Below, piece after piece: positions 15,503-32,000 of a stretch of DNA of 64,000 bases. A program made the position numbers and the translations under genes. Source of the DNA: Giardia intestinalis (Eukaryota); the NCBI GenBank assembly GCA_000002435.2, contig CM018792.1; one strand, given 5' to 3'. Below the pieces are notes generated by a model. That model made no database searches. It had not been told where the DNA came from and worked only from the letters and a program-made list of their open reading frames with translations. Positions within the stretch are counted from its first letter, which is position 1. Each line of letters starts with the position of its first letter.

Positions 15503-18500
15503 ATGGGAAGTGAACGAAATCTAAAAAACGCGAATACGGAAATGGACGTTCTCAAGACGTGTCGCTATAATGACTCCTCCTACATAGGTAGTGGGGGACT
15601 TGGCGATGTATATCGGGCAACAAGCGCCAGTTCTGGTGTGAAGGTCGCGGTACGGAGGGTGGATATATCCAAGCTATCCAAAGAAGCCTGGGCAGAGCTT
15701 TCCACCATTTGTAAGCCCTACACCAATCTTATTCATCCGAACCTAGTAAGATACTATAGCGTAACCATAGAGCAGCCCTTCCAACAACTTCTTTTGGAAA
15801 TGGAACTATGTAACGGTGGCTCTCTTCAGGATGTAATCAAAAAGATGCGGTCCGATGGGACGTCGTTTGATGAGGAAACTGTTTGGAGCATAGCCTCACA
15901 GATTGCCGCCGGGCTTTCATGGCTCCACAGCCCATTCAATGGGGTGGGGGTTGTACCTCACTGTAATATAAAGCCCTCTAACATTCTTATAGGCAGTCAA
16001 GGCGTCTTTAAGTTGACTGATTTCGGTTTACAGCACGTGCCATTTAGCAGAACCATCCCCACAAGCCAATCAGGATCGGCGCTGTATCGTGCACCGGAAC
16101 TGCGGGACGGAGCCAGCGCACCGTCGATACGATCAGATATATGGTCGTTTGGTTTGCTTCTTTGGACAATGTGTACACTCCGCCACCCTCTATTTAATCT
16201 GGATGAAGTGACAGAGGAGCCTTCTATTCGTCTCCCAACATATTCCCAAGTACTCAATGATTTAATCGAGGGTTGCCTTCGTATCAACCCTACTAGTAGA
16301 CTTACAATTACCGAAGTGGTTTCGCGCATACGCGCTAACGTGCCAACTTCACACTCTAGATCCAGCTCTACTGCACGGGCTGATACACGGACTGCCTTTC
16401 AATATAAAAACACCAACAATCTACAACCTGAAATCACAAATGAAATAGTGTCTAACGCTACCTACCTAATGAGTAGTAGGCCACGCTCCGCAACTATGGC
16501 CAAGAAGAGCCGCGTTTTTGCTGATGATCCGACTGACCAATCCATCTCTACCCCTGTTACTGGCCCAGAGCAGAAGCTAACTTCCATTCGGCCCATGAGT
16601 GGTCGCGCCTCCACATTTTCCAGAAGCAACACAGATTTATCTGTCTCACAGCAGGTCGAATGCTCGGCTCTGTTAAAACAGGACCAGCTCCCAGTAGCTA
16701 CACCCAACGGGCCAGCTTCTCTCAACATCATGAGCCGCTCTCAGGCCCCTCGAGGCAATCATGATAAGTCGGGCATGCAAGCCATGGTATCCTCTACTGC
16801 TGAGGCTAGTGAGACAGTGATTCAGTCTCGGAATAAAAACCTGGCTGAATCCTTGCGCTTTCAAGGCGCATTTCCTGTTGCTCGAGAGCGACCGCTTCAA
16901 CCAGGTGTTGGCAGACCCGTACCTACTGTTTATAGTACTACGCCATCTCCCTCTTGTCCTGTGTCTGAGCCAATTGAAGATGGACTCCGAGGCGAAGAAG
17001 ACGCTCTCTACACGAGTGGAGCTGCCATTCCTCCTGCTGCTTCAAACGAGCCGCGTGCTGAAGTTAACGACCTGCCCCACACTTTACCTGAGCAGGACGT
17101 TCCACTGAGTCCTATTGTAGATAGCCTACTTATGGCCGCACAAAATTCGCGCTCTGCGTCTCGCGCAGATAGTCGCAGTGTAAAACGTGTGCCCAAGCAT
17201 ATGTCGACTACGGAGTCGTCTATAGTTCAGCAGCCATCTCTGAAAGAATCTTTGTCCGCACCTCAAGTTTCGGGGGCCTCCGATGACGAACTATCCCGGG
17301 CAATTCTCTCAAATGACTGCAACTACTTTTCGATCGTTTTGCAAAAGCTCTATGGTGACCTTTTATCCCAGGAACTTCTTGAGTCTTGTTTCAAGCAAGC
17401 TATAGCTTTCTCTGCTCACTTGGTGCTTCCAATTCTAGCAGAGAATCTCTTAGCAGCTGGAATAAAGATCAAGACCGGCTTTGGACTAGAATCGCGACAG
17501 GGCGTGGATGTAGATTTTCCCAGCGAGCTGATGATTGCCGCGCAAAAAGGTGACGCGGGATTGGTTCGTGCCAGCCTTCGTGACATGGGGCAAATCTACA
17601 AAAATCGGACAGCTCTAATGCTCGCTGCAGAACATGGCTCTGTTGAGTGCATCAAGCTATTGCTGGGAGAGTTGGCGATACAAAATTCAATGGGGGAGAC
17701 GGCTCTTGTTCTCGCAGCTAAGAAGGGGTACGTTGATTGCATCTCTCTCTTGCACGCAGAAGGAAATCTAACCTACTCGGAGTATGATAAGTTTTCTGAC
17801 GGCGCACTCGTCTCTGGATTGACGCCCCTTATGGCATCTATTCGAAGCGGCCAGAGACACTGCATTCATGAATTCCAATATCTTCTTAAGCGACAAGCAA
17901 GCAATGGAGCAACAAGTCTGATGTATGCTGTACTGGGCGAGCTGGATGCCTGCATACCATATTTGGTGGATGAGTGTCGGATCACCGATAACCTTGGCGA
18001 GTCAGCACTCATGAAAGCAGTCGATGGCCCAAGCATGCAGGTTGTCGAGTTCCTAAGCAAGTACGAAGGAGGAATCCAGGACATAGAAGGGAGAACGGCG
18101 CTTCTACGTGCTATTCAGAACAAGAATGTAACATATGTCAAGGCCATGCTTCGCATTCAGAAGCAGTCGTCGGAGCGTGACATAGGGCTGGTTGCAAACG
18201 ATGGGACCACGCTTTTCACTGCAGCAATCAAAAGTGGTTCAGAAAACCTTATTTATCTACTCAATGCCGAGGACATGTCTGCGTCAAAATATCTCCGTTC
18301 AGGTGCGCGTTCTGCAAACATACAGAATGTTCAGCAGTCAGGGTCGGTTATTAAACTAGAAAACCCCAGCGAAGACACAGCTCAGCAAGGATCTGTTCAA
18401 CACACGCCTCAGCAGACACACCAAACGTTGGCTGAGAGGCTACAAGCGGTCAACAATTCACTTGCATCAGCCCAGCCTTCCTTATCCAAAGAACTACTCG

Positions 18501-20035
18501 ATAAGCATCAGCACGACACTCTTTTTGCACTGCTCTCCGGCGATGTTTCTGTTGATGAACTCGACTTCAGCTGCTTCCGCTCCCTTGCAGGTAAAACAGA
18601 TAGAGATGGCTACACCGCTCTAATGATAGCTGCCATCAATGGCAATCAGGCCTTTGTAGAGAAAATTGTGAGCACACCAAGCATGCACGAGGAACTAGGG
18701 AAAGTTGATCGTGAAGGGCGTAGCGCACTAATACTTTCAATACTACACCAGCGGGTGGCCTGCGCGAAGATACTCGTGACAGTGCCAGGAGAACTCGGTT
18801 GTAGCATGCCCGACGGAGTCACCCCCTTGATTCTAGCGATTCAGAAGCGATTTTATAGCATTGTCCCTTCTCTCCTAGAAGTCTCAGGGCAGCGCACCAA
18901 GGAAGGAAAGAGCGCACTTATGATAGCGATGGAACTAAATGCGCCCCTGCGTTCATTGGGGAGCCTCCCAGAAAGAGAAGCAACCCTGTGCAATGCCTTA
19001 GGGGAAAATGCACTCTTTTACACTATCAGAAACAACAAGCATCTCTATCTAGCCCGGCTTGCCGAGGTTGCCAATAATCGCCCAAATGACGCTGGGCTTT
19101 ATGCGATCAACATTGCTGTAGAACAAGATTGCTGGCAATGTTTCAAAACCATGTATGAATATGAGGCCCGCGCTGTCATTGGAACGCGAGAGGCCATCGG
19201 AGCGCCGTTCAAGACGTTGATCTTATCCATACTGCGGAACAATAGCATCCGTATACTTGAAAATATGAGTGCCCTTCTCCGTACTAAGCCTTTCAGGGTC
19301 CAACTTCCATCTACACAAGTCTCCGTGCTCGACAGTCTATCCCCCACTATGCTGGCAGCCAGAGAAGGAAACGAGGCAGAACTTTGCGCGCTGATCTGTA
19401 ATCAGCGTTCAGGCTCTAAAGCAAATGCCCATATTGTCCAAGTGTACAACGGTAGGACCGCCCTGATGGAGGCCGCAGCACGGGGCTACGCTTCTTGTGT
19501 AAGGCTACTTCTAGGTGAGGTGGGGTTTCGAGATGAAAATGGCCGCACTGCGCTGATGCTTGCAGCACAGAATGGGCACCTTGAATGCGTCCATCTGCTA
19601 CTCATAGAAGCAGGCGTTAAGACGATAACCCGCGAAACGGCTCTAACTCTTGCAGTGGCCAACGATATGACAGAGTGTGCAGATGTCCTTCTATGTAGAG
19701 AGTATTGGCTATCTGGAACCTCCTCTATGCTGCCGTTCAGTTTGGGGATACAGCACTCAAAGGCGTGTGCAGAAGTTGTCTCGATTAAGCGGGTTGTGAG
19801 TCTGTATAGGACATACTACAAGGATTATGAGGCGCAGATCGGCCGATGCCACATATGCCTCGATGAACTGTGTACTGTCCGGTGTCTTCCATGCAGTCAT
19901 GATGTTGCATGCCCGTCCTGCGTGCGAGATATTCTGGAGGCAACGCGTGCAGGAAACACTAAACGCAATCGCTGCCCAATCTGTAGAGCAGAGATTGAAA
20001 ACTGGACACAAGTATTTGTTGAAAGCAGTCTTTAG
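15503..20035 (+). CDS. Multi-domain protein: degenerate protein-kinase domain (pseudokinase, NEK-like) + large ankyrin-repeat array + C-terminal C3HC4 RING finger
   Basis: Glycine loop IGSGGLGDVY. The catalytic loop is HCNIKPSN (HRD Asp replaced), and VAVRR replaces the VAIK lysine, so it is probably inactive. Many ANK repeats span roughly 17.5-19.7 kb (TALMLAAEHGSVECIKLLL, TALMIAAINGNQAFVEKIV, TALMLAAQNGHLECVHLLL). C-terminus is CHICLDELCTVRCLPCSHDVACPSCV...CPICR. The track start at 15476 is a GTG, and the first ATGs are at 15503 and 15542. Confidence 0.75.
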   Translation: MGSERNLKNANTEMDVLKTCRYNDSSYIGSGGLGDVYRATSASSGVKVAVRRVDISKLSKEAWAELSTICKPYTNLIHPNLVRYYSVTIEQPFQQLLLEMELCNGGSLQDVIKKMRSDGTSFDEETVWSIASQIAAGLSWLHSPFNGVGVVPHCNIKPSNILIGSQGVFKLTDFGLQHVPFSRTIPTSQSGSALYRAPELRDGASAPSIRSDIWSFGLLLWTMCTLRHPLFNLDEVTEEPSIRLPTYSQVLNDLIEGCLRINPTSRLTITEVVSRIRANVPTSHSRSSSTARADTRTAFQYKNTNNLQPEITNEIVSNATYLMSSRPRSATMAKKSRVFADDPTDQSISTPVTGPEQKLTSIRPMSGRASTFSRSNTDLSVSQQVECSALLKQDQLPVATPNGPASLNIMSRSQAPRGNHDKSGMQAMVSSTAEASETVIQSRNKNLAESLRFQGAFPVARERPLQPGVGRPVPTVYSTTPSPSCPVSEPIEDGLRGEEDALYTSGAAIPPAASNEPRAEVNDLPHTLPEQDVPLSPIVDSLLMAAQNSRSASRADSRSVKRVPKHMSTTESSIVQQPSLKESLSAPQVSGASDDELSRAILSNDCNYFSIVLQKLYGDLLSQELLESCFKQAIAFSAHLVLPILAENLLAAGIKIKTGFGLESRQGVDVDFPSELMIAAQKGDAGLVRASLRDMGQIYKNRTALMLAAEHGSVECIKLLLGELAIQNSMGETALVLAAKKGYVDCISLLHAEGNLTYSEYDKFSDGALVSGLTPLMASIRSGQRHCIHEFQYLLKRQASNGATSLMYAVLGELDACIPYLVDECRITDNLGESALMKAVDGPSMQVVEFLSKYEGGIQDIEGRTALLRAIQNKNVTYVKAMLRIQKQSSERDIGLVANDGTTLFTAAIKSGSENLIYLLNAEDMSASKYLRSGARSANIQNVQQSGSVIKLENPSEDTAQQGSVQHTPQQTHQTLAERLQAVNNSLASAQPSLSKELLDKHQHDTLFALLSGDVSVDELDFSCFRSLAGKTDRDGYTALMIAAINGNQAFVEKIVSTPSMHEELGKVDREGRSALILSILHQRVACAKILVTVPGELGCSMPDGVTPLILAIQKRFYSIVPSLLEVSGQRTKEGKSALMIAMELNAPLRSLGSLPEREATLCNALGENALFYTIRNNKHLYLARLAEVANNRPNDAGLYAINIAVEQDCWQCFKTMYEYEARAVIGTREAIGAPFKTLILSILRNNSIRILENMSALLRTKPFRVQLPSTQVSVLDSLSPTMLAAREGNEAELCALICNQRSGSKANAHIVQVYNGRTALMEAAARGYASCVRLLLGEVGFRDENGRTALMLAAQNGHLECVHLLLIEAGVKTITRETALTLAVANDMTECADVLLCREYWLSGTSSMLPFSLGIQHSKACAEVVSIKRVVSLYRTYYKDYEAQIGRCHICLDELCTVRCLPCSHDVACPSCVRDILEATRAGNTKRNRCPICRAEIENWTQVFVESSL

Positions 20036-20091: not shown

Positions 20092-21138
20092 TTATGCGAA
20101 CTTCCCATAGATAGGTGTTCCACACTTTCCACAACAACCATCCTTAAGATTGCAAACCTTACCGTCAAAGCCTGTCATGCGAGAAATAAGCAGTTCGCCA
20201 CACTGGGGGCAGCTCGTATTCAAGTACGATGTATCCCGCACATTGCCAGCATAAAGATAGAGGAGCCCGGCCTCCTTGCCGAAGGCCAAGGCACGCTCTA
20301 GCGTTTCTGTCGGAGTTCGTTCTTTGTCCAGCATTTTGTAGTCAGGATGAAACGCAGAAACATGCCACGGAATGTCCTTTCCAACAGATGCGATGAAATT
20401 AGCTATATCCTGCAGCTCCTCGCCTGAATCATTCATGCCGGGAACAATCAGAGTCGTGACTTCAACTATGACTTTTTTCGTGCTATAGAGGAATTTAATT
20501 GTGTTCTTGACTGGCTCAAGACTACCGCCCATGATCTTTCTGTACGTTTCCTGTCGAAATGTCTTCAGATCGACGTTGATTGCCGAGATCATTCCCACCA
20601 ACGCATCCAGTTGCTCCTTGCTTTCAAACCCATTCGACACATAGACGTATGATATGCCTTCTTTGGCTGCTAAGCAAGCAATGTCATAAGAATACTCAAA
20701 CCATATGCTGGGCTCGTTGTAAGTGGCTGCAATATGTCTGATGCGTCTCCTCTTGCAAATAAGTATGATCTCATCCGGCGTTAGAATGCGCCCGTCAGAT
20801 CTCTCCAGACAATAGTCTTCGATATCCTGCACGTTAGGCTTGTCCATACTGATGCTCCAATTCTGGCAAAACTTGCATGAAAAGTTACAGCCTATGGTGC
20901 CTATACTTAGTATCGCCTCTCCGGGATAATAGTGATAGAGGGGTTTCTTTTCCATTGGGTCAACGTGGAGGGCGCTAGGCTTCCCCCAGACGGCCAAGTA
21001 CAGTTTTCCATTATCGTTATAACGGACACCGCAGATCCCCGATTTTCCTTCTCCAATGGTACAATAATGAGAACAACAAGTGCACTGAACGCTCCCGGGG
21101 GTCTTGCCTGGTCGGTAGAGAACACACTCACGCTTCAT
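20092..21138 (-). CDS. Radical SAM enzyme, AmmeMemoRadiSam-system / PFL-activase-like type (bacterial/archaeal-type)
   Basis: CxxxCxxC cluster motif GCNFSCKFCQNWSIS, preceded by a Cys-rich N-terminus (CTCCSHYC...GICGVRY) and EKKPLYHYYPG. This matches my recollection of the AmmeMemoRadiSam radical-SAM family. Confidence 0.7.
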   Translation of the reverse strand: MKRECVLYRPGKTPGSVQCTCCSHYCTIGEGKSGICGVRYNDNGKLYLAVWGKPSALHVDPMEKKPLYHYYPGEAILSIGTIGCNFSCKFCQNWSISMDKPNVQDIEDYCLERSDGRILTPDEIILICKRRRIRHIAATYNEPSIWFEYSYDIACLAAKEGISYVYVSNGFESKEQLDALVGMISAINVDLKTFRQETYRKIMGGSLEPVKNTIKFLYSTKKVIVEVTTLIVPGMNDSGEELQDIANFIASVGKDIPWHVSAFHPDYKMLDKERTPTETLERALAFGKEAGLLYLYAGNVRDTSYLNTSCPQCGELLISRMTGFDGKVCNLKDGCCGKCGTPIYGKFA

Positions 21139-21230: not shown

Positions 21231-23672
21231 ATGGAGCTTCTGGAATCCCTCATTGCACTCGCAGAGATGCGGCCACACCAGATCAGAGAGTACATATCTA
21301 CAGGCCGAAAACGGCTAATGGATGCAGTTCACGATGGCCTGACTCCGTATCAACGTACAGCAATCACAATCCAGATCGATGAACTACAAAGACACAGGCT
21401 TCGACAGTTTCGACTACTTGATTTCCTTCTTGGCTTATCGACAGCCGATTCCTCTGTCTCAACGGCACTTCCTATCTATGCTTATAATAACCTTGCTAAG
21501 AGCAGTATCGAAGCAAGCACAAGTAGGGAGCCGAGCGACCTTTCCTCGAGCAACGACTCTTTCTCGGACGTCTCTTTGAGTGTAGCAAACCAATACGTTA
21601 TGTTTAGATGCTTACGCAATGGCGTAACACACTACAGATCAGAGTACGTCCTGCATCTTCTGGGCAAGTCTGTCTCACTAAGAAGACGCTACGGACGGCG
21701 CTTTCTACTTCCTTATCGGTTTTTCTATAGCCAACACGAGGACACTGTCCATATGTTTCTTTCTTTACGGGATTACATGGTTCTTTTACCGTTAGAAGTT
21801 ATTCTAGAGAACTTTGCAATCGCACGCTACCACCTCTTTGCAAATCTGTTCTGCTTCTTTATCAAAGATCTCTTGGATGTGATGGCGCTTTTTCATGAGC
21901 ATGAGATTGTGCTCAGCGGGGATCTATCTCATCTATGCGTTGATAGACTCTCTGGGAGAATAAAGCTTAACCTGTGTACGTATTCTGTCCCAATACCTCG
22001 TAGTTATCATGCTGGAGTAGAAGAGGATCTGCGTGCCGTTGCCAACCTAATTCTTCGATACACCCATGACTCTACGCTTTATCCCATATCCGATGTGCAA
22101 AAGCAGTTACTCCAGATTGCCTATTCCATACATCAATCAGTAAGCCAAGATCACAGTGATCAGTTCCTTGTGATTCCTAATCTATCTGATGTCGCCAAAT
22201 GTCTAGCTCAGCACCCTGTGTTCTTTAGTAACGCGTATCCTTCGATCTCTATTATTAACACGGACGTAGTGGCGGTCTTTACTACTGCGCAAGAGCTCAG
22301 TAAGGAAATGCAGGTTGCCTCAATTGATGAAACTGCCGATTCTATCTATCCTTTAGCAGATAGCACCCCTAGGGCAGATGCTTCCCTGTCACGGTCACCA
22401 GGAAGTCAGCATGATTTTGATAACTGGTTTACTACTGCCTCTTATCAACCTCTGCCACCTATAGGCGCCATGCTTCTGGGAAGTAACGCTGCTGCTACAC
22501 CAGCCACGCGGTCACGTACACAGGGCCCTGAGTCTTTAGAAATAGAGATGCTTGGTGACAGCCCGGTACATTTCGAGAGCACGTCATCAACTATTGAGTC
22601 ATCAACTACCGGACTATCGCCTGAGCCTCGTCTGAATCTCGAGTTACAAGTAGGACCGCCTCCCCCTATTCTCTCGACAGCAATGCGAATCAGTGATCGC
22701 TATACGCACAGTTGGAGAACTGTAGAAAGACTTAAGAGGGAAACTACAAAGACCAACGTAGAAGAAAACAGAGAAGGGCCGCACAATATACACTGTTGCG
22801 CTAAGACTAGTGAACAGTGCCTACCACCAGGGAAGCTTTTTCCGGTAGCAGTGCCCCAATTCCCCGTATCTGCCATATCGATCATTCAGGCACCGTCTCC
22901 TCAGCCTCAACCTCTGCATCAACGAGCCGCCTCGAATCCACCACCTTCCAACACGATCACAAGACTCCAGATTGCAAATCCAAACACCAGTCCCATAAGT
23001 TGGTCTCATGTGCCTACCAATGTACCCCCTGGGAAAGGCAGAAAGGCATCGTTTGGAGGGAGTGTACTGACAACGAAGATCTCACGTGGTGAGCATAGAA
23101 GCAAAAGTCAGCCTACTCCGGCTATAGCGCCGATTTCGAGAACAATCTACACACTGAACATTGGAACAGAGGCACCAGCACGCAAACCAGCGCAATTCCT
23201 TCCTCTGAAACAATCTATTCCTATAGAAGCCCGGCCTGAGCCTCAGGCAAAAGGTATAGCTGGATTGACAACAGTGGCGCCCCCTGCGTTCCCGTCAGCT
23301 TCAGGACAAGCCTTTCGAAGACATTCTCATAGCGCAGCTCCACCTCTCTCACAAACTGAGGTTACCGAAAGCATTTCTAAAGCCCTAGGCCCAAAGGTAC
23401 CATATCAATATACGCGCAATCCGGTATCTGTAGCGCATCAGCCCACGCTCTCAAGGTCTCTCAGTGCTCAACCACGTGCAAGTACTACGGAAGACGTGGA
23501 AGACTATGACGTTCTATACTCACGGGTTACTCTTCATGCGCCAAAGTTCGCAGAACCTGTACGGCGTGTATTGATAGAGAGAAACTTCAGTATCGCCGCA
23601 TCTGCTCCAAAGGCCACCAAGGATATCAACCCAATCGAGGAGCTGAATCAGGCGCTTGTAAATTATTGGTGA
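21231..23672 (+). CDS. Hypothetical protein with Pro/Ser/Thr-rich low-complexity C-terminal half
   Basis: Long ATG-initiated ORF in a gene-dense context. No recognisable domain. The C-terminal ~400 aa are low-complexity (PQPQPLHQRAASNPPPSN...). Confidence 0.55.
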   Translation: MELLESLIALAEMRPHQIREYISTGRKRLMDAVHDGLTPYQRTAITIQIDELQRHRLRQFRLLDFLLGLSTADSSVSTALPIYAYNNLAKSSIEASTSREPSDLSSSNDSFSDVSLSVANQYVMFRCLRNGVTHYRSEYVLHLLGKSVSLRRRYGRRFLLPYRFFYSQHEDTVHMFLSLRDYMVLLPLEVILENFAIARYHLFANLFCFFIKDLLDVMALFHEHEIVLSGDLSHLCVDRLSGRIKLNLCTYSVPIPRSYHAGVEEDLRAVANLILRYTHDSTLYPISDVQKQLLQIAYSIHQSVSQDHSDQFLVIPNLSDVAKCLAQHPVFFSNAYPSISIINTDVVAVFTTAQELSKEMQVASIDETADSIYPLADSTPRADASLSRSPGSQHDFDNWFTTASYQPLPPIGAMLLGSNAAATPATRSRTQGPESLEIEMLGDSPVHFESTSSTIESSTTGLSPEPRLNLELQVGPPPPILSTAMRISDRYTHSWRTVERLKRETTKTNVEENREGPHNIHCCAKTSEQCLPPGKLFPVAVPQFPVSAISIIQAPSPQPQPLHQRAASNPPPSNTITRLQIANPNTSPISWSHVPTNVPPGKGRKASFGGSVLTTKISRGEHRSKSQPTPAIAPISRTIYTLNIGTEAPARKPAQFLPLKQSIPIEARPEPQAKGIAGLTTVAPPAFPSASGQAFRRHSHSAAPPLSQTEVTESISKALGPKVPYQYTRNPVSVAHQPTLSRSLSAQPRASTTEDVEDYDVLYSRVTLHAPKFAEPVRRVLIERNFSIAASAPKATKDINPIEELNQALVNYW

Positions 23673-23717
23673 TTAATTTGGGGCATCTTCGGCAATCCTT
23701 GGACGAAATTCAAAAAC

Positions 23718-26558
23718 ATGTCTGACGAGCAGCTAGGCGCGAAATATACGCGCCAGGATCTGATTCTAACTAGCGAACTGGCTTGTGTGTATCGTGTCTT
23801 TTACAGAGAGCTTGATATGCAGCTTCTGATGCATGAATATACCCTACAGGGTGCAAAGTACTCTGATGAGCTTCATGCCCATCTAGCCGCTATGCAGGAA
23901 TTAGATCACATCTACTTAGACTCCTTAGTTGATAGCATTTCTCTTGATAGCGGAATAAAGCTATGTGCTATTTACGATCTTCATGATCATGGGTCCATTT
24001 CACAGGTGATGTCAAGCTACACTGAGCAGAAGATACCGATCAATGAAAACATGGTCTGGGAAATCAGTGCACAAATCATCAGTGCGCTGCGGTATTTGCA
24101 CAGCCACTCTTCTGCGGCAAATAGAGGCCTCCCCTACACCCATGGCAATCTTCGGCCAAGCAACATCTTGGTGACAGATAGCAATAAGCTTGTTCTAACA
24201 GCATATGGTTTTTCGCTCAATGACCCACGGATTAAGCATCTCTGTGAACCCGACTGGCAGTATGCTGCCCCGGAGGTTCTTTCCAGTCAGTCCTCAGGTG
24301 ATTATATGCCCCATAGTGATATGTTTTCCCTTGGTCTTATCCTGTTAGAGATGTGCACTGGAACACCTGCTTCGTGTCAGCGTAGGGAGGATGCACTAGA
24401 TGTACTGAACAACTTGCAACTTCCACTTTCAATTAGCGGCTACTCTATTGATTTGCTAGAGTTCATCAAGAAGCTTTTACAAGTGGACCCTAGTTGTAGA
24501 ATGACTGCAGCGGAAGCAGCCAACCATCCTGGCATAATTGAGGGCCTCAATAGAGTTTCTACCAGTCGACACTGCAGTCTCGAAACTATTATTACACAAG
24601 AAGATTTACAGAATACGGAGCAGAGTGACATTTCCTTGGCCATACCTGAGAACCTGATGTCCAAACATCTATCTCTAGCACCAGAACCCGAAGACAGGAC
24701 AGACGAGATTGCTCAGCTGTTAGAACTTATTGCTAACGATAACCTAGAGAAGTTGCTTGTTTGCCAACAATTCAACAATGATTGCTTCGCTCAACATGAG
24801 CGTGTGACAACCTATTTAAAGACACCAGATGTCATATGCAGATTACTTACCTTAGCTTTTGTGCCAATAGAACAGTGTTCAGAAAAATCTGCTGAGAAAA
24901 TGACGGCTCTGGTGATGCACCAGCTTCAAGGAGAGGCTATCTCTGTTATACAAGAATGTGGGTACGGAGCCGTTGTTCTGGAGTCTCTACTGCTACACCC
25001 CTACTTGCTAAACATCCCTTTTAGCATGCTCTCCAAGTTTATTGAAGAATATGAAGCAGGTGTGCTGCCTCGGCGGCTAGTGTATAGCAAGTACGATATT
25101 ATTCTGTCATCGTTTAACAAGCTAATTCTCTCTATCATTTCTTCTCCGAGCCGATTGCCGGGACTGTTCAGCGCACTTTCTAATGAAAACACGTCATGGA
25201 TGAGTCTCTGGATCCAGGGCATAGTCAATCCGCATATAAATGAAGCGCTGCGGAAACTTCTGCTTGATCAGGAGTGTCGTCGCAATCTAACATACAAGAA
25301 GCTAGACGCCTTTGTAGGGGAATTAGATCTAATTGGGCGTCTGCTAAAGCATCTGATCACCAGTGATTCTATTGAGGCATATGCTAATCTTGAATCTGCA
25401 GCCCACATTCTCCTGCAAATATTAACAGCTAGGGTTCCTTTTTTAAATCTTCGGGTGCTTGCGGGAACAGAAGCAGTAATAGAGCGGGTTTTGTCCCCCA
25501 CCATGAACACACCGGAGGCCTATCCGAGATTGCTCATCCTTTTAGATTTCATAGTTTGCGTTACCAGCGTTGTTATCTGCAAGAGCACAGTCATATGCTT
25601 AAGGTCTCGGCAAAAAATCAATGATCTGCTTATGGACACTAATGCCGTCGGGATTGACAGCGCTATGCTGCTATCGTGCTTGGAGGCTAACGACCGGGCA
25701 GAGATGCAGCTCTTTTTAGGCACATTTTCGGCTATTGAAGGCCTTTTTGCGAGGATTGAAGACCTGCTCTCTACGGTGTCCAATCCAATGATTAACTATT
25801 TGTGGATTGATTTTGTAGCTCGGTCCTTACAAATTACTAACGACGTAAGAACAGAGATCTATAAGTACCAAAACAACTGCCTTCCCAATGATGGGATCGA
25901 CAGTGCTAGCTTCAACGTGCCCTATGCATACGGGCTTAAGCCCATAGGATATGGTATGCTCCTGGGGCCCAACTCTGTGGCGCGCACCGGCGCTTCTGGA
26001 GTAAGGAACACCGTTGGCCTTGATGACACCTTTCTGCTGGATGCCAATACTGTTATCTCTGTTTCGATATACACAATTTGCAAGAAACTAACAGAAACCA
26101 ATCTCCTCTATCTCTTTGCACAGCATGCGGCAGCCAATCCATCATTCACAATATACCATGTTCGGTTTGTTAAGATAATGCATCTAGTTTTTGAGTACGG
26201 ACGCATAGACTTCAGAGTACTAGATAATGGTCTCAAGCGGTCTCGTTTGTTTGGATTCTACGAGGCGATGTCCGGCCAATACTTACATAGGCAACAGCAG
26301 CGTCTACCAACCGATAAGATGCATTGTAGCTTTACCTGCCACCTAGTATTTTTTCTTCGACAGGTGATGAAGATTGCAACATTTGGATCGCAATACGCCT
26401 GGGAGGCTGAAGGCAAGTCAGACCAACTTCCTAAGAACCTTGCAGACTTGAAAAGACTATTGGCCAAAGTGGATGATGAAAACGCCGATAAGATAGGGCA
26501 GCTCCTTATAAGTAGTAACTTTCTTGAACGTTTCAGTTCAATCTTCCTTTCAAAATAA
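23718..26558 (+). CDS. Protein with N-terminal degenerate kinase domain (pseudokinase) and large uncharacterised C-terminal region
   Basis: Kinase-like HGNLRPSNILVTDSNKLVLTAYGFS (HRD Asp replaced by N, DFG replaced by AYG), followed by APEVL and DMFSLGLILLEMCTG. AT-rich 'aaattcaaaaac' precedes the ATG. The ORF is terminated by a single TAA that is followed by 98 in-frame sense codons (see findings). Confidence 0.65.
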   Translation: MSDEQLGAKYTRQDLILTSELACVYRVFYRELDMQLLMHEYTLQGAKYSDELHAHLAAMQELDHIYLDSLVDSISLDSGIKLCAIYDLHDHGSISQVMSSYTEQKIPINENMVWEISAQIISALRYLHSHSSAANRGLPYTHGNLRPSNILVTDSNKLVLTAYGFSLNDPRIKHLCEPDWQYAAPEVLSSQSSGDYMPHSDMFSLGLILLEMCTGTPASCQRREDALDVLNNLQLPLSISGYSIDLLEFIKKLLQVDPSCRMTAAEAANHPGIIEGLNRVSTSRHCSLETIITQEDLQNTEQSDISLAIPENLMSKHLSLAPEPEDRTDEIAQLLELIANDNLEKLLVCQQFNNDCFAQHERVTTYLKTPDVICRLLTLAFVPIEQCSEKSAEKMTALVMHQLQGEAISVIQECGYGAVVLESLLLHPYLLNIPFSMLSKFIEEYEAGVLPRRLVYSKYDIILSSFNKLILSIISSPSRLPGLFSALSNENTSWMSLWIQGIVNPHINEALRKLLLDQECRRNLTYKKLDAFVGELDLIGRLLKHLITSDSIEAYANLESAAHILLQILTARVPFLNLRVLAGTEAVIERVLSPTMNTPEAYPRLLILLDFIVCVTSVVICKSTVICLRSRQKINDLLMDTNAVGIDSAMLLSCLEANDRAEMQLFLGTFSAIEGLFARIEDLLSTVSNPMINYLWIDFVARSLQITNDVRTEIYKYQNNCLPNDGIDSASFNVPYAYGLKPIGYGMLLGPNSVARTGASGVRNTVGLDDTFLLDANTVISVSIYTICKKLTETNLLYLFAQHAAANPSFTIYHVRFVKIMHLVFEYGRIDFRVLDNGLKRSRLFGFYEAMSGQYLHRQQQRLPTDKMHCSFTCHLVFFLRQVMKIATFGSQYAWEAEGKSDQLPKNLADLKRLLAKVDDENADKIGQLLISSNFLERFSSIFLSK

Positions 26559-26852
26559 AACCTTCTTCATCAAAAGGCAACGAGGCAAGGATCTGCGATA
26601 GAGGCTAAGCGGGCAGACCGAGCGGCTGCTCTGGCGGCGATTAAAAACAGTAAATCCGAGAAAGCCCCGCAGAAAACCTTTAGTCAACCGACAAAACCTG
26701 AGGCCAGAAAGGTCGTCGTTGTCAATGCTGGGCAAAAGAAAATCGTCAACGCCGCGCCTTCCTCTGGTGCAGCTCCACGGGTGGCAAATACTCCACAAGC
26801 AAGGGGTGACTCTGGTCCTGCATCTAGGCGCTCCCCGACCCAGGCACAAGGA

Positions 26853-28970
26853 ATGCATGTGATCAAGTCATCTTTTCTTAATAGTATGCTTGGTAATAAT
26901 AGAAACGTTGACACCGGCGTAGTTTCTCAGGCTCGGGCCGTCGACCCAAATGAGTATGGAGAGAGTGTTTCTCTCGTGGACCAGAAAGATGACCAGCCAG
27001 CAAGGCTCCAAATGAGCGAGCAGACCGCAGCTACATTAGCACAGCTTAATCTTCAGCCACCTACGTTGTCTCATCAAGCAGCACATCAAGGGCAATTACA
27101 GCAGCAACAACAGTTACCACCCCGGCAGGTACAGCTACCCCCTGTGGATAATAGGTATTCCTCTGCAATTACTTCCATGTCTGACCCGTCAAACTGCAAT
27201 ATTCCGGGAATGGGCAGGGAGCCGATGCGTGTCTCTAAAACGCCTGCTACAGATGTTACGCATACAAGATCCAATCCCCCATTCACCGAGCCTGCCAAGC
27301 CGACGGTCAAGAAGAGCATAAACGAAATGACAGATGCCGAGTACGCTGAGTATTCTAACCAAAACATGAAGAAGTATCAAGCAAGCCTTTTGCACAAGCT
27401 ATTTGTCACAAAGACGTGCACAGCAATAGACAAGCAAGAGATTGATGACCTGGTCAAGATAGACAAGGAGTTCCGTGCTCAGTATCTCCAAATGAAGCAA
27501 GAGGCTGACCGAGAAGAGGAGGAGACACGACGACGTGCAAAGGCGGAGGAAGAGCGTCAGATTGCCGAAAGAATACAGATGGAACTGAACGCCAAGCAAG
27601 CAAAACTAGATAAAGTGTTGCACGCGCGCGCAGGTCATTTCGATGAAAGTGAGTTTGTCCCGGCTGAGCCTGCTCCCAGGACTAGATACATTCCTCAGGA
27701 CGAGCAGATGCCGGCAGCTAGTAGTGCACTTCTAGATAAGATGCAAACCGAGCTCTTATCTACGAAGTCACAGCTATCAAAGGCTCTAGATGAAATTGAA
27801 CGTTTAGAGATCGAAGTACGCAAGGAGCGGGAACAAAAGGATGCCTTGTCTGCCACTGTCGAGAGCTTGCGTAGGGAACTAGAAAAGGCCAGAAGTGCAA
27901 ACCAAGTTGTATCCACATCCTCCTCTGCAGTGCAAATGGAGCGCCCTATAGAGTCGCCCGGGAAGAGCTCGAGCATGCCTATCCACAATTCTCCTGGTAT
28001 CAGGCCTCCTTTGCACGTCGGCACTAACCGTACAACAGACTCCCAAAGCCGTCAGCCTGGCCAGTTCTCGGGACTTCCTCAACAGAAGGAGCAGCAGAAT
28101 GAAGAGACTTTCATGGATATCCTCAAGAGGAAGATAAGCACGACGCTGACTAACGTGGAATATGCTATTCCACTGAAGAAAAAGGATGGTACGGAGAGGC
28201 CAAGCAGTCCACGACGTATTTCACATGCTCCACCAGTGCCGCCTTCAGCACCAAATATTGGACAGGCCTCTAGTGGTATCACTAACAGCTCCGCTTTAAA
28301 TGACACCGTGTCGTTCCTAAATGCACAGGAGTCTATATTGCAGGTTAATGCGAACCAGGGCCCACAAGAGCCAGACGATGCTTCGCTGTACTCGATAAAG
28401 CAAAATACACTCAACCCTTATATGCAAACCCTTATTTGCGAGAACGATATTCTGCTGGTTGATTGTGACAACCAGAGTATGCAATCCACCGATGCCTTCA
28501 ACACCTCAACAATGTCGACCGGTAATATTCCGGAGAGCCTAATGCATGGCCCAAATGCTTCGTTTAACCACAGGATTCGCTCTATAGACCCGAGTGATCA
28601 TCATAACAGAACGCAAGAAACAGAGAATAGAGATGATAGTTTCCCCCTATATGTAGATTCATTGCCAACCAATAGCAATCTTAGTAATAGCCTTTTAACA
28701 ACTGAAGGACAGCAGAGTGCTGAAAACAACAAGCCCCAAACGAATTTCATAATGTCCGACGACGGTCTTGTGCAGCGTTCAGCAGATGAAGCAGCTGCGC
28801 GCTCAAGCAATATTCTTGGGCACCCCTTTACTGTGCGGCACGTCTTGCAAGATGGGTCCAGCACTCATTTTCTGACGCACAATAACCTACGAGGTCAAAT
28901 GATTTTCGATCACGATAGCGATAGCGACGGTTCTTTGCTGACAGAGAGCGTTCCTGACGAGCCTTCTTGA
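26853..28970 (+). CDS. Gln-rich / coiled-coil low-complexity protein (start uncertain; possibly the C-terminal part of a disrupted fusion with the upstream gene)
   Basis: The track start at 26781 is GTG and the first ATG is at 26853. A central charged coiled-coil segment (EEEETRRRAKAEEERQIAERIQMELNAKQAKLDKV...LEIEVRKEREQKD) is flanked by Q/S/N-rich regions. An AGTAAAC motif sits 7 nt after the stop. Confidence 0.5.
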   Translation: MHVIKSSFLNSMLGNNRNVDTGVVSQARAVDPNEYGESVSLVDQKDDQPARLQMSEQTAATLAQLNLQPPTLSHQAAHQGQLQQQQQLPPRQVQLPPVDNRYSSAITSMSDPSNCNIPGMGREPMRVSKTPATDVTHTRSNPPFTEPAKPTVKKSINEMTDAEYAEYSNQNMKKYQASLLHKLFVTKTCTAIDKQEIDDLVKIDKEFRAQYLQMKQEADREEEETRRRAKAEEERQIAERIQMELNAKQAKLDKVLHARAGHFDESEFVPAEPAPRTRYIPQDEQMPAASSALLDKMQTELLSTKSQLSKALDEIERLEIEVRKEREQKDALSATVESLRRELEKARSANQVVSTSSSAVQMERPIESPGKSSSMPIHNSPGIRPPLHVGTNRTTDSQSRQPGQFSGLPQQKEQQNEETFMDILKRKISTTLTNVEYAIPLKKKDGTERPSSPRRISHAPPVPPSAPNIGQASSGITNSSALNDTVSFLNAQESILQVNANQGPQEPDDASLYSIKQNTLNPYMQTLICENDILLVDCDNQSMQSTDAFNTSTMSTGNIPESLMHGPNASFNHRIRSIDPSDHHNRTQETENRDDSFPLYVDSLPTNSNLSNSLLTTEGQQSAENNKPQTNFIMSDDGLVQRSADEAAARSSNILGHPFTVRHVLQDGSSTHFLTHNNLRGQMIFDHDSDSDGSLLTESVPDEPS

Positions 28971-28976
28971 GAACCA

Positions 28977-28983
28977 AGTAAAC
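28977..28983 (+). promoter_or_regulatory. Putative polyadenylation/3'-processing signal AGTAAAC (AGTRAAY class)
   Basis: Located 7 nt after the stop of the 26853-28970 gene. Matches the diplomonad AGTPuAAPy consensus as I recall it. Confidence 0.3.
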
Positions 28984-29002
28984 ATAAAAACCATACTCTT
29001 CC

Positions 29003-32000
29003 ATGCTTAATCTTATCCCTCCCCGAAGCTTTGTGCTTCAGGAAACTATCCAGGAGATCACTGGTCTAGTTGCGCATGCGCAGGAGCTCACCACTCTATA
29101 CTTTAAGGCTCTTTGCGACTTCCATGTGTTGTTTCCTCTATTACAAGATATACGTTCTGTAGTTGCACAAATCAGTGCCCTCAGCTCCACTGTTCCGCTG
29201 GCAATGGATGGAGTTGTTGCCTGTTGCGTTTCCTCTGTTCTTGCCTGCCTCAAACGAGTTATAGAGGCCACTGTCACAATAGGAGAGTCATGTCTCTCTG
29301 CCATTACTCCAACATGGCAATGGAACGATCACATCTACGAAGTACTTCACTCAGCGTATGTCCAGACCGTGCTTGCCGTTAATGCAGCAAGATTTAAGCA
29401 CATATATAGCACCTTGCCTCTGAGCACCTCTCTCACGGTTAACTCCCTCTACATCATCATTTGCATATTCTGGGAGAACACTATCGGCTACAGGCCCACA
29501 GCGCCGGCGTCCGAAGTCCTCTCGTCTCTTCTCAATTGGCTGGACGCAAGAGGCTACTATGACAAAAGCACGTCCATCAATAAGACAGAGAAGAGTAGAG
29601 ACAGCTTCCTCGCAGATATCACTGGCGCCGTGCCGAACAGCGCTGTCACCCCGAATGACCTCTTTTGTTATGCGCACATCTTCAACTATTTTCTCTATGA
29701 AAGCCTTTGCACCAATCTACCAGGAGTATCTCTGGAGAGTCACCTCTACGAATTGGTTAAGGAGGCCAGATTGACGTTTATGGATAATGTTTTCCCCGGT
29801 ATTCTGCCACTCACCAACGTGACGAATCAGTCATACATCAATCCCTGCTATAACCTACCTTCGTTCGACACCTTTTGGCTCCAGTTTGATCTGTCTGCAT
29901 ATTCAAAATCAAGCTTGCCCCTCGCAATCGCCTTTCCCCGGCCCGAGTTTATTAAAGACACCGTGCGGTTTAGCGAGGAAAGTGTGTTGCTGAATGAAGA
30001 ATACATTAAGATATCTAATTGTCATGTCCTGGTGCAAAAGCTTAAGCTGAAGCTGAAGCCAATTGACGATGCCCACGATAGCACGCTCTCCAAGGTCTAT
30101 ACAGATCGTGCTACAAAGCTTCAGGATCTTTATGCTTCTATAACGCAAAAGCTTAATGGTGTAGATGCGACTAACATCTCTTCTATTCAGGACAGGTATC
30201 TGGCCAACTTGATAATACTGAGGCAGCTCAGTTTTTGCTATCTTCCATCAGACTTGAAGCATGAGCATCTCTCGTACTACACTTCTAGGCTTCCGGTCCC
30301 GATACTGGACCTGGGGATCATCTCTGTTCCGTATTTGGCGGAGTATCTCTTCCACATCTTGAGGCACAAGTCTCCTACAGAAAGCCCGATTGGGATCCCG
30401 GCAGACTTCGTAACACACGTGTGTGGTACGCGGGTCTTCTCGGATACAGCACCATCTGTGGGTACACGGCCACCGCAAAAGGACACCATCGAATACCTCC
30501 TTTTCTGTCTCAACCAAATACACCCGCATAAAGGCCTGCACATAGACTTGCACGCAGATGAGCATCTCCGCACAAATGTCGTACCAAGTAACTCGGGAAG
30601 GGACTACGAATTATCGCAAACGTTGTTACGCACGGTCAACGGGACTCCAATATTGATCCAACGGTATATGGAGCGAGAATGCAAGAAGGCCATGCTTTCT
30701 AATAAGATCAAGCTCACTGCAATGAAGCTACACCAAGTGCATCTTCTGGTCAAGCAGTCAATTGACTCTGTCATTAGCGATTGTGTGGACTCTATTAAGA
30801 CGCACAACACGACGTACAAGCACATGACCAAGGAGGATATAATCCAAGAACTTTTTAGTGCAAGCGAGATTGAGGGCTATGAAATGCTCACTAAAGAGAA
30901 GTCTATCGGGGATGAAAAGCCAACTGAGCCAGACAAACTCAACAAGCTAAACGATCATGTTTCGTTTATCGTTTCCAAGATGATAACCATATGCTTGAAT
31001 ACAGCCATAATTTGCGGGAGCGAGTTTGACAAAGAACTGACAAAGATTACTGGGTGCATACTTCCGTTTGGTGGCCTATCTTGTAGGTTGACTATGAGCT
31101 ATCTGAATAAGCTTTATAACAGATATAGCTCTATCTCAGAGCATCTCACGGAAGGAGTTATGGGGGCGATCTCGTCGCTTTGGGAAATAGTAGCGGCCAA
31201 AACAGGCTATTCTTCCGGGGCCTTGGATCGTATTTTGGTGTATAGAGGTCTGCACATTAAGCAATCTGCGATCACATCACCCGAGTTGATCCTTCCAAGC
31301 ATTTGCAAGAAGGACGATTCTCGCTTGAACTACCATTCGTCAAGGTTCCGGGACGAGCTCCTAGCAACATGCTCAGGGCGAAAAGAGTGTGACAGCCCCT
31401 ATTTGGGGGGCGGTCCTGAGTTTCATTTACATCGGAAGACACAGGAGAATGAGTACTTCAAAGGGCATAGAGGACGAGTCCTTTACCACGAGGCCGGGTA
31501 CCTGCCCCTTCGCACCTTTTCCCTAGCCATGGTTCAAATGGCTTCAAATTTAAAGTTTACTATCTATAACGATCTGTCTCTTTTAATCTTTATGTTCAAA
31601 CACCTTCCTATTTCTCTATCACGGTCTATTCTTATCTGCCAGCTATATTCTCAAGCGGTTCTCAACATTCCCAAGATTCTATCTGCATCTATAGCCTGTA
31701 CAGAGCTTTTAAAACTCAAGCTACACCCTTCCACGACTACCAGTTACATGAGCGCTTTCCCTCTACAGGAATCCTTTTGCGTTAAGGGCAGAGAGTTGTT
31801 GGATAAGCAGTCTATTGTTCCAGCTCTCCTTTCTGATTTAAACCAGCTAAAATTCAACATAGTTGTTTCAGGAACCCCCGGATCTGGGGTCACAACGTTG
31901 ATCAAATATCTCACACTTTCTCCATTGTTCCAGTATATAGAGCCGCTTTCGTCGGCAGCAGGAGAGCCAATCCTCTTCATGGAAAGTCACATGGTGTCAA

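What the first reader, a model, noticed from the sequence alone, without database searches (positions are those of the whole stretch)
26556..26853. Two large ORFs separated by a single in-frame TAA followed by 98 stop-free codons: disrupted fusion gene, sequencing error or readthrough
The 946-aa ORF (23718-26558) and the downstream 729-aa open frame share a reading frame. I translated 26559-26780 codon by codon. There is no stop and no ATG, GTG or TTG before 26781. The first ATG is at 26853, which lacks the AT-rich context seen before other starts here. Ninety-eight sense codons after a stop has about a 1% chance expectation. In a genome where true spacers are typically 15-120 bp, this looks like one ancestral ~1750-aa gene (pseudokinase + unknown domain + Q-rich coiled coil) split by a nonsense change. 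Alternatively it could be a base-call error, or a site of stop-codon readthrough. The ORF at 21231-23672 upstream is in the same frame but is separated by TGA plus only 15 codons, which is not significant.
Basis: seen in the sequence. Interest (0 to 1): 0.55.

Follow-up and report, generated by a model that had tools for sequence, protein, structure and literature searches.

The report
Hidden ATG-less start of Giardia gene
The 294-base "spacer" after the stop codon of a Giardia kinase gene is really a conserved, protein-coding front end of the next gene (GL50803_14933). It contains no ATG in any Giardia duodenalis lineage, so this gene probably starts translation at a non-ATG codon and is not a broken fusion gene or a readthrough site.

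Summary
The window is Giardia duodenalis WB. In detail: TAA at 26556-26558 is followed by 98 in-frame sense codons with no ATG before 26853 (chance about 0.2-2%).

- The kinase stop is conserved in all five G. duodenalis lineages fetched (946 aa each). The G. muris orthologue ends at the same place.
- Ten independent assemblies, two from confirmed RNA-seq runs, are identical to the window here, so it is not a base-call error.
- In assemblage B and two more divergent lineages, small indels just after the stop put the downstream frame at +1 or +2. Readthrough or an ancestral fusion is therefore excluded.

From about 26574-26580 to 26852 the downstream frame is open in every lineage, lacks ATG, and is under strong purifying selection:
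- dN/dS is 0.05-0.12.
- Variable sites at codon positions 1/2/3 number 17/15/66, p = 8e-12.

The stretch is therefore a mis-annotated N-terminal extension of about 91 aa of GL50803_14933.

Best explanation (inferred): an independent mRNA starts at the invariant AT-rich element overlapping the kinase stop, and translation starts at a near-cognate codon, most likely the invariant ACG at 26580.

No canonical Giardia splice signal, RNA structure or outside homologue was found. No cellular non-AUG start in Giardia turned up in the literature searched.

The parts
23718..26558 (+). NEK-family kinase-domain gene (946 aa; annotated 'Kinase, NEK', XP_001709741). It is probably a pseudokinase (HGN in place of HRD, YGF in place of DFG). 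Its genuine stop is TAA at 26556-26558.
   Evidence: Pfam Pkinase 8e-24. Name from the cluster look-up. The 946-aa length and TAA are conserved in all lineages. The G. muris orthologue ends at the equivalent position. The catalytic-motif substitutions were read directly from the translation.
26529..26561 (+). Nucleotide-level conservation peak containing the invariant AT-rich element TTTCAAAATAAAA(C/T) (26548-26561), which overlaps the kinase stop. Inferred to be the initiator-type promoter or transcription start region of GL50803_14933. It could also, or instead, be an AATAAA-like 3'-end signal of the kinase.
   Evidence: 80-87% of columns are invariant here, against 27-40% further upstream. 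Wobble-site invariance is 50% against 14%. It resembles the A/T-rich elements found 0-20 nt upstream of other ATGs in the window, for example CATAAAAACC before 29003. The function is inferred, not shown.
26559..26573 (+). Short variable segment carrying the lineage-specific 1-2-nt indels that change the frame relation to the kinase stop. Inferred to be an untranslated leader or gap.
   Evidence: Alignment of 7 loci. It is the lowest-conservation block (47% invariant) and has no 3-nt periodicity, with variable sites 3/4/4.
26580..26582 (+). Invariant in-frame ACG, the best candidate for a near-cognate start codon. It has a purine at -3 in all lineages. Other in-frame near-cognates nearby are AAG 26574, AGG 26583 and ATA 26598.
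   Evidence: Amino-acid conservation becomes strict from this codon on (T1-K28 almost invariant). The three codons before it (26568, 26571 and 26577) show non-synonymous differences. Its use as a start codon is inferred only.
26580..26852 (+). ATG-less, conserved coding extension (91 codons) of GL50803_14933: TRQGSAIEAKRADRAAALAAIKNSKSEK...KVVVVNAGQKKIVNA...RRSPTQAQG.
   Evidence: The frame is open in all 5 lineages with no in-frame ATG. dN/dS is 0.05-0.12 in this frame and above 1 in the other two frames and on the antisense strand. Variable sites number 17/15/66 by codon position, p = 8e-12. The first 28 residues are the most conserved stretch of the whole protein.
26649..26655 (+). AGTAAAT, invariant including its wobble sites. 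It is a candidate Giardia-type polyadenylation signal for the kinase mRNA, embedded in the extension.
   Evidence: Alignment. Giardia poly(A) signals of the AGTRAA/UAAA type and a median 3' UTR of 80 nt are reported in PMC3610916. Inferred.
26853..28970 (+). Currently annotated CDS of GL50803_14933 (705 aa; hypothetical, Q-rich and coiled-coil, no Pfam family). It begins at an internal conserved Met.
   Evidence: 100% match to P0001, XP_001709743 / KAE8303815. No family or solved-structure match.
26550..26858 (-). Antisense 102-aa ORF in exact antisense register. It is a by-product of the sense coding sequence and not a gene.
   Evidence: Listed. It is interrupted by stops in assemblage B and in L007, its ATG is not conserved, and its dN/dS is 1.4-3.5.

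Best explanation
Shown: the 294 nt between the kinase stop and the annotated ATG of GL50803_14933 are not a spacer. From about 26574-26580 onward they encode a conserved N-terminal extension of about 91 aa of GL50803_14933. The gene is evolutionarily independent of the upstream NEK (pseudo)kinase gene, whose TAA is an old, genuine stop. No ATG exists in this extension in any G. duodenalis lineage examined.

Inferred mechanism: the invariant AT-rich element TTTCAAAATAAAA overlapping the kinase stop acts as the Giardia initiator-type promoter. It would produce an mRNA with a leader of about 15-30 nt, which is the variable, indel-bearing 26559-26579. Translation would begin at a near-cognate codon, most likely the invariant ACG at 26580, giving a protein of about 796 aa instead of the annotated 705 aa. 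The kinase mRNA probably ends inside the extension (invariant AGTAAAT at 26649), so the two transcripts would overlap.
For: Independence from the kinase:
- Identity of the locus and lengths of the orthologues.
- Five lineages fetched. The stop is conserved. The gap from the kinase stop to the ATG aligned with WB 26853 is 294 nt (A, E), 295 (B), 296 (L007) and 295 (L006/L008), so the frame relation is not conserved.

The extension is coding:
- The extension frame is open and ATG-less in all lineages.
- dN/dS is 0.05-0.12 and substitutions show 3-nt periodicity, p = 8e-12.
- The N-terminal 28 residues are almost invariant.

The stop is genuine and old:
- The G. muris kinase ends at the same position and is followed by an unrelated gene.

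Transcription and promoter:
- RNA-seq-derived contigs are collinear, with TAA and ACG unchanged and no splice. Contigs break before the kinase TSS and after the 14933 poly(A) region, but none of those inspected breaks inside 26559-26852.
- A conservation peak lies on the AT-rich element, followed by a dip that carries the indels.
- Similar A/T-rich elements precede other starts in the window.
- This gene is the only credible one in the window with more than 25 ATG-less leading codons.
Against: - No direct evidence for the transcription start or the translation start.
- Giardia mRNAs are reported to have 1-14-nt leaders and no scanning (PMC3610916). The inferred leader to ACG (about 20-29 nt) is longer than that.
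- No cellular non-AUG start in Giardia turned up in the literature searched. The only proposal found concerns the Giardiavirus capsid IRES (PMC8230311).
- The AT-rich element also reads AATAAA and could be the kinase's 3'-end signal instead of a promoter.
- No outgroup homologue of the extension was found, so the ancestral start cannot be seen.
- No downstream hairpin or other RNA structure that would favour near-cognate initiation.
Confidence: 0.58

Rival explanations
1. An unrecognised, non-canonical cis- or trans-splicing event joins a short AUG-bearing first exon located elsewhere to an acceptor around 26575-26580. The extension would then be the 5' part of exon 2. This would resemble Giardia HSP90, where the sequence upstream of the annotated HspC ORF contributes a junctional peptide.
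For: An ATG-less, conserved in-frame region upstream of an annotated ORF is the signature seen at trans-spliced Giardia genes (abstract of PMC4006730). Known Giardia introns cluster right after start codons (PMC10711314). A conserved AG is present at 26575-26576.
Against: No match to the extended Giardia 3' splice signal CT[AG]ACACACAG within about 1.2 kb upstream of the extension start (nearest 25287; next 28872, far downstream). The window-wide count of matches is at chance level. The sequence upstream of the extension is kinase coding sequence with its own wobble pattern. Transcriptome-wide screens report five trans-spliced and 42 cis candidates. The cis list does not include 14933, and the trans-splicing screen describes dynein heavy chain, HSP90 and p68 cases only. 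RNA-seq-derived contigs are collinear with the genome, and no protein with a different N-terminus exists among the cluster members.
Confidence: 0.12
2. Translation of the extension is coupled to the kinase ORF on a bicistronic transcript. After terminating at TAA the ribosome either reinitiates a few codons downstream without an AUG, or bypasses 18-20 nt from the Lys codon AAA at 26553 to the conserved in-frame Lys codon (AAG/AAA) at 26574. This would give either a separate ~800-aa product or a kinase-14933 fusion, independent of the frame relation.
For: Conserved coding begins only 15-21 nt after the stop in every lineage. TCAAAA occurs at both the take-off site (26550-55) and the landing site (26569-74), and an in-frame Lys codon is conserved at the landing site. 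RNA-seq contigs run continuously from the kinase into 14933. The last ~36 nt of the kinase ORF are unusually conserved at wobble sites.
Against: To my knowledge, neither mechanism is known for cytoplasmic genes of eukaryotic cells with non-AUG restart (background knowledge, not tested here). Lys codons and A-runs are common. In G. muris the kinase is followed by a different gene, so there is no ancestral functional linkage. No RNA structure was detected. Short gene spacing is normal in this genome. Continuous contigs are equally explained by overlapping transcripts.
Confidence: 0.12
3. The annotated ATG 26853 is the only start. The upstream 270 nt are an untranslated region conserved for DNA- or RNA-level reasons such as a promoter, the kinase 3' UTR or a regulatory RNA.
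For: This matches the current annotation in all deposited genomes. Wobble-site invariance is raised in the first ~90 nt (8/15 and 6/15 against about 2/15 later), which shows some nucleotide-level constraint.
Against: Substitutions are concentrated 4:1 at third codon positions (p = 8e-12). dN/dS is about 0.05-0.12, the same as or lower than in the annotated CDS. The frame stays stop-free in five lineages at dS of about 0.3-1.2. No conserved or stable RNA structure. There is no AT-rich element before 26853.
Confidence: 0.08
4. One reading: a recently nonsense-split ~1750-aa fusion gene, a sequencing error at 26556-26558, or programmed readthrough of the TAA.
For: In assemblages A and E the two ORFs are in frame, separated by a single TAA.
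Against: The stop is conserved in all lineages, and the G. muris orthologue ends at the equivalent position. The frame is offset in B, L007 and L006/L008. The sequence is identical in 10 independent DNA and RNA assemblies. The context is TAA-A. The segment right after the stop is the least conserved and contains indels.
Confidence: 0.03

Closest known systems
Evolutionarily conserved non-AUG-initiated N-terminal extensions of eukaryotic proteins, as catalogued comparatively for human genes by Ivanov et al. 2011 (recalled from my own knowledge). Yeast ALA1 (ACG) and GRS1 (UUG) are examples that surfaced.
   Same: The diagnostic signature is the same: an in-frame, stop-free, ATG-less region upstream of the annotated AUG, under protein-level purifying selection across lineages, bounded 5' by a conserved near-cognate codon (here ACG).
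   Different: In those cases a scanning ribosome meets the near-cognate codon on a long leader and usually also uses the downstream AUG. Giardia is reported to have 1-14-nt leaders and no scanning. Here the non-AUG codon would be the leader-proximal and probably the only start. No experimental evidence exists for this gene.
Giardia trans-spliced genes (HSP90 HspN/HspC, dynein heavy chains, p68 helicase)
   Same: The annotated downstream ORF starts at an internal ATG, and conserved coding sequence lies upstream of it without an ATG (abstract of PMC4006730).
   Different: The defining signals are missing here: GTATGT(T), CT[AG]ACACACAG and intron complementarity. No junction is reported or seen in RNA-derived contigs.
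Proposed non-AUG, IRES-driven start of the Giardiavirus capsid protein (PMC8230311)
   Same: It is the only proposal found in the searched literature of non-AUG initiation by Giardia ribosomes.
   Different: It concerns a viral RNA with a structured IRES. No comparable structure is predicted here, and this is a chromosomal gene.
Programmed stop-codon readthrough extensions
   Same: In assemblages A and E a single stop separates two long in-frame ORFs.
   Different: The frame relation is not conserved, the stop context is TAA-A, and conservation does not begin at the stop.

Membership tests
Conserved non-AUG-initiated N-terminal extension | In-frame, stop-free region upstream of the annotated AUG that contains no AUG, in all orthologues | tested here: met
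   91-98 codons are open and ATG-less in 5 lineages.
Conserved non-AUG-initiated N-terminal extension | Protein-level purifying selection in the extension | tested here: met
   dN/dS is 0.05-0.12. Variable sites number 17/15/66 by codon position, p = 8e-12. Other frames and the antisense strand have dN/dS above 1.
Conserved non-AUG-initiated N-terminal extension | Conserved near-cognate codon at the 5' edge of conservation, in a favourable context | tested here: inconclusive
   ACG 26580 is invariant, with a purine at -3 and an A at +4. The edge of constraint cannot be placed more precisely than 26565-26580, and favourable contexts in Giardia are unknown.
Conserved non-AUG-initiated N-terminal extension | Direct evidence of initiation: initiating-ribosome footprints, an N-terminal peptide, or mutagenesis | not testable with these tools
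   No ribosome-profiling or proteogenomic study of Giardia was found.
Programmed stop-codon readthrough | The downstream ORF is in frame with the stop in orthologues | tested here: not met
   The offset is +1, +2 and +1 in B, L007 and L006/L008.
Programmed stop-codon readthrough | Leaky stop context and conservation starting immediately 3' of the stop | tested here: not met
   The context is TAA-A. The first ~15 nt after the stop are the least conserved and carry the indels.
Nonsense-disrupted gene / pseudogene / assembly error | The stop is absent from relatives or from independent reads, and constraint downstream is relaxed | tested here: not met
   The stop is present in all lineages, and the G. 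muris orthologue ends at the equivalent position. Ten assemblies are identical, including RNA-seq contigs. Constraint downstream is strong.
Giardia spliceosomal (cis or trans) intron-containing gene | Extended 3' splice signal CT[AG]ACACACAG directly upstream of the downstream exon | tested here: not met
   No match with up to 2 mismatches between 25297 and 28872. Motif definition from PMC5224939.
Giardia spliceosomal (cis or trans) intron-containing gene | Spliced junction present in RNA | tested here: inconclusive
   RNA-seq-derived contigs are collinear with the genome. The gene is absent from the cis-intron candidate list, and the trans-splicing screen reports only dynein, HSP90 and p68 cases. 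No read-level analysis was possible.
Termination-reinitiation / translational bypass | Restart or landing codon close to the stop on a shared transcript, with a dedicated upstream RNA element | tested here: inconclusive
   The distance is 15-21 nt and contigs are continuous. There is no AUG, no detectable structure, and rRNA complementarity was not tested.

The most novel reading that the evidence does not exclude
GL50803_14933 is an obligately non-AUG-initiated cellular gene, with ACG as start codon on a short leader, in Giardia. This eukaryote is thought to lack scanning and to need an AUG within a few nucleotides of the cap. That would make it the first cellular example and a natural reporter for how Giardia ribosomes choose start sites. 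A more exotic variant is AUG-independent restart or bypass coupled to termination of the upstream kinase ORF (about 0.1 on its own).
Probability: 0.5. Interest if true: 0.68.

Novelty: new member of a known kind. Interest (0 to 1): 0.55.

Why it matters
- It corrects a gene model that has carried through every deposited Giardia annotation found here (705/703 aa in WB, P15 and GS, and again in the newer GL50803_00-series WB entry). The correction adds the most conserved 28 residues of the protein.
- It shows that a single in-frame stop between two ORFs is not evidence of a split gene here.
- It provides a concrete, strongly supported case of a Giardia protein-coding region with no available AUG. 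Giardia's initiation machinery is minimal and start-site selection is thought to depend on cap proximity. A conserved AUG-less gene is therefore a direct handle for testing whether near-cognate initiation, or something stranger, operates there.
- The comparative signature used could be applied genome-wide to find further cases. That signature is a frame kept open across assemblages even though indels change the frame relation to the upstream stop.

Tried and rejected
- **Alternative genetic code (TAA as a sense codon, as in hexamitid diplomonads).** Rejected: 10 of 23 large ORFs in the window end in TAA, and Gln is encoded by CAA/CAG.
- **Antisense 102-aa ORF as the conserved element.** Rejected: it has stops in two lineages and dN/dS above 1.
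- **C-to-U editing of ACG to AUG.** RNA-seq-derived contigs still read ACG.
- **Canonical intron or trans-intron signals.** None near the extension. The near-match to the RNA-processing motif at 26676 is at chance level.
- **Conserved RNA structure near the putative start.** None: z = +1.2 and no covariation.
- **Outgroup.** Exhaustive HMMER with the N-terminal 217 aa found only the WB protein itself. A word-index search found only G. duodenalis orthologues. The syntenic G. muris locus, reached through the neighbouring radical-SAM gene, has the kinase but a different downstream gene. A second Giardia-like contig (L012) is not syntenic.
- **Function of the protein.** No Pfam, PDB or other family. 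There are only weak coiled-coil-type hits.
- **Literature.** The gene ID appears in no paper searched. No Giardia ribosome-profiling, proteogenomic or TSS resource was found. The Franzén supplement contained no entry for the gene.
Full report
**Identity of the locus.**
The window is a gene-dense, intron-poor region of about 47% GC with no tRNA genes. The ORF downstream of the finding is 100% identical to GL50803_14933 of Giardia duodenalis WB, assemblage A (705 aa, hypothetical protein). The upstream ORF is the annotated 'Kinase, NEK'.

The kinase has a Pfam Pkinase domain (8e-24). It reads HGN where HRD is expected and YGF where DFG is expected.

**Check of the observation.**
- TAA lies at 26556-26558 and is followed by 98 in-frame sense codons (26559-26852). 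There is no ATG, GTG or TTG until GTG 26781. One CTG occurs at 26631. The first ATG is at 26853.
- The probability of 98 stop-free codons is 0.24% from the off-frame stop frequency of local genes, or 1.9% from shuffles.
- Every other credible gene in the window has at most 25 ATG-less codons between the upstream stop and its ATG.

**Comparative test.**
I fetched the orthologous locus from five lineages:

| Lineage | Locus |
|---|---|
| WB (assemblage A) | the window |
| P15 (assemblage E) | L001 |
| GS/ATCC 50581 (assemblage B) | L005, plus a B-like Logan contig L010 |
| More divergent lineage 1 | L007 |
| More divergent lineage 2 | L006/L008 |

Three results follow.

1. The kinase orthologue is exactly 946 aa and ends in TAA at the aligned position in all of them.
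2. The distance from the kinase stop to the ATG aligned with WB 26853 is 294 nt in A and E, 295 in B, 296 in L007 and 295 in L006/L008. (For L006/L008 and L010 the gene caller chose other starts, TTG and GTG, so the gaps printed differ.) The differences come from 1-2-nt indels confined to WB 26562-26567. The 'same frame' relation therefore holds only in A and E.
3. The frame of the downstream gene is nevertheless open in every lineage from the indel site to the ATG. It contains no ATG in any lineage. It encodes a nearly identical peptide...TRQGSAIEAKRADRAAALAAVKNSKSEK...KVVVVNAGQKKIVNA...RRSPTQ..GMHVIKSS.

**Selection.**
Over 26580-26852, variable alignment columns fall 17/15/66 on codon positions 1/2/3 (chi-square p = 8e-12). 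Nei-Gojobori dN/dS against WB is 0.05-0.12 in this frame. That is comparable to the annotated CDS (0.05-0.12) and lower than the kinase C-terminus (0.05-0.40). It is 1.3-8 in the other two frames.

The antisense ORF at 26550-26858 lies in exact antisense register. It has dN/dS of 1.4-3.5, loses its ATG, and is interrupted by stops in two lineages. The 'spacer' is therefore translated in the frame of GL50803_14933. Its first 28 residues are the most conserved part of the whole protein.

**What this excludes.**
- *Sequencing error.* Ten independent Logan assemblies are identical to the window over 26353-29470. Two are from runs identified as RNA-seq in PMC5224939 (SRR2642198, SRR2642200).
- *Recent nonsense split of a fusion gene.* The stop is shared by all lineages. 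In G. muris the kinase orthologue (890 aa, 33% identity) aligns to WB residue 945 of 946. It is followed 24 nt later by a different gene, a paralogue of the kinase's own C-terminal domain. No 14933 homologue lies nearby.
- *Readthrough.* The frames differ in three lineages, the stop context is TAA-A, and the 15 nt after the stop are the least conserved block (47% invariant) and carry the indels.
- *Frameshifting.* A different shift would be needed in each lineage.
- *Alternative genetic code.* TAA ends 10 of 23 large ORFs here.

**Anatomy around the junction.**
- The last ~30 nt of the kinase ORF and its stop (26529-26558) are 80-87% invariant. Wobble-site invariance is 50%, against 14% further upstream. 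The invariant AT-rich string TTTCAAAATAAAA lies here.
- A variable, indel-bearing segment follows (26559-26573).
- Conserved coding then begins. In-frame codons are CTT-CAT-CAA-AAG-GCA-ACG-AGG-CAA-GGA... Non-synonymous differences occur at the CAT, CAA and GCA codons. Only synonymous differences occur from ACG (26580) onward.
- In-frame near-cognate codons are AAG 26574, ACG 26580 (invariant, purine at -3), AGG 26583 and ATA 26598 (invariant).
- AGTAAAT at 26649-26655 is invariant, including its wobble sites. It fits the Giardia poly(A) signal type, at a distance typical of Giardia 3' UTRs (median 80 nt; PMC3610916).

**Mechanism.**
The best-supported model is an independent GL50803_14933 mRNA. 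Its initiator-type promoter would be the AT-rich element overlapping the kinase stop. Similar A/T-rich elements lie 0-20 nt upstream of most ATGs in this window, for example CATAAAAACC before 29003. The leader would be short, and translation would start at a near-cognate codon, most likely ACG 26580. The product would be about 796 aa.

RNA-seq-derived contigs are consistent with transcription across the whole 'spacer'. They start about 30 nt before the kinase ATG, or end about 30 nt after the 14933 stop. None of those inspected breaks within 26559-26852. They show no splice and no ACG-to-AUG change. The steps 'promoter here' and 'ACG is the start' are inferred, not shown.

**Rival explanations.**
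- *An AUG-bearing exon supplied by splicing.* This is the Giardia precedent for ATG-less coding sequence upstream of an annotated ORF (HSP90). The extended 3' splice signal is absent. Published transcriptome-wide screens do not list this gene. No alternative N-terminus exists among the proteins predicted from the roughly 130 contigs in the cluster.
- *Coupling to kinase termination, by reinitiation or bypass between the conserved Lys codons at 26553 and 26574.* This cannot be excluded. It has no precedent that I know of and no supporting RNA structure. The G. muris gene order argues against a functional link.
- *An untranslated conserved region.* This is contradicted by the codon periodicity.

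**Comparison with known systems.**
The signature matches that of conserved non-AUG-initiated N-terminal extensions described in animals, plants and fungi (my own knowledge; yeast ALA1 and GRS1 examples surfaced).

The host biology is unusual. Giardia leaders are reported as 1-14 nt with no scanning. The only non-AUG proposal found in the literature searched concerns the Giardiavirus capsid IRES. I found no report of a cellular non-AUG start, no paper mentioning this gene, and no ribosome-profiling or proteogenomic resource for Giardia.

The protein itself has no detectable family, solved-structure relative, or homologue outside G. duodenalis.

**Verdict.**
- The finding is a mis-annotated, AUG-less, strongly conserved N-terminal extension of GL50803_14933.
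- That the stretch is coding and independent of the kinase is near-certain (about 0.9). Non-AUG initiation as the mechanism is the leading but unproven explanation (about 0.5-0.6).
- Interest is moderate. The gene has unknown function, but it is a clean and testable exception to how Giardia is thought to select start codons.

Noticed in passing
window 12369-13540 (+) and 44304-45475 (-): Two kinesin genes (12369-15449 + and 42188-45475 -) share a 1172-nt 5' part (motor domain) that is 99.9% identical, in inverted orientation about 30 kb apart. These segments are about 59-61% GC against about 47% background and carry long shadow ORFs. This suggests a recent duplication or ongoing gene conversion.
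   Followed up: partly
window 20092-21138 (-): Radical-SAM 'pyruvate formate-lyase activating enzyme', labelled a lateral-transfer candidate in one deposited annotation. Outside diplomonads and a related protist, the named hits listed at about 50% identity are archaeal and bacterial AmmeMemoRadiSam-type enzymes.
   Followed up: no
L011:3082-4986 (-), G. muris: The gene directly downstream of the G. muris kinase orthologue is a 634-aa paralogue of the kinase's own non-kinase C-terminal domain (24% identity over 550 aa). It is not a 14933 homologue. The gene content downstream of the kinase therefore differs between G. muris and G. duodenalis.
   Followed up: partly
window ~23687-23730, ~15512-15537 and ~29000: Ends of Logan contigs coincide with gene boundaries. 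Some contigs begin about 30 nt before the kinase ATG, some begin near the start of the 1519-aa NEK gene, and some end about 30 nt after the 14933 stop next to AGTAAAC. Two of these contigs are from confirmed RNA-seq runs; the type of the other runs is unverified. Such ends could serve as rough TSS and poly(A) markers.
   Followed up: partly
window 26554-26559 and 26676-26687: A canonical AATAAA overlaps the kinase stop codon. ACCTTTAGTCAA inside the extension resembles the Giardia 12-nt RNA-processing motif TCCTTTACTCAA with 2 mismatches, but matches of that quality occur at chance frequency in the window (8 found against 5.8 expected).
   Followed up: partly
window 26550-26858 (-): The RefSeq and UniProt accession numbers of the kinase (XP_001709741, A8B503) and of 14933 (XP_001709743, A8B507) are not consecutive, whereas the newer KAE8303814 and KAE8303815 are. 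This hints that the older annotation placed an ORF between them, possibly the antisense 102-aa ORF. Not verified.
   Followed up: no
window 15503-20035 (+): 1510-aa protein (first ATG at 15503; the 1519-aa ORF listed from GTG 15476 was the one scanned) combining a kinase domain, many ankyrin repeats and a C-terminal RING finger. The G. duodenalis lineage in L008 has a 1560-aa counterpart.
   Followed up: no
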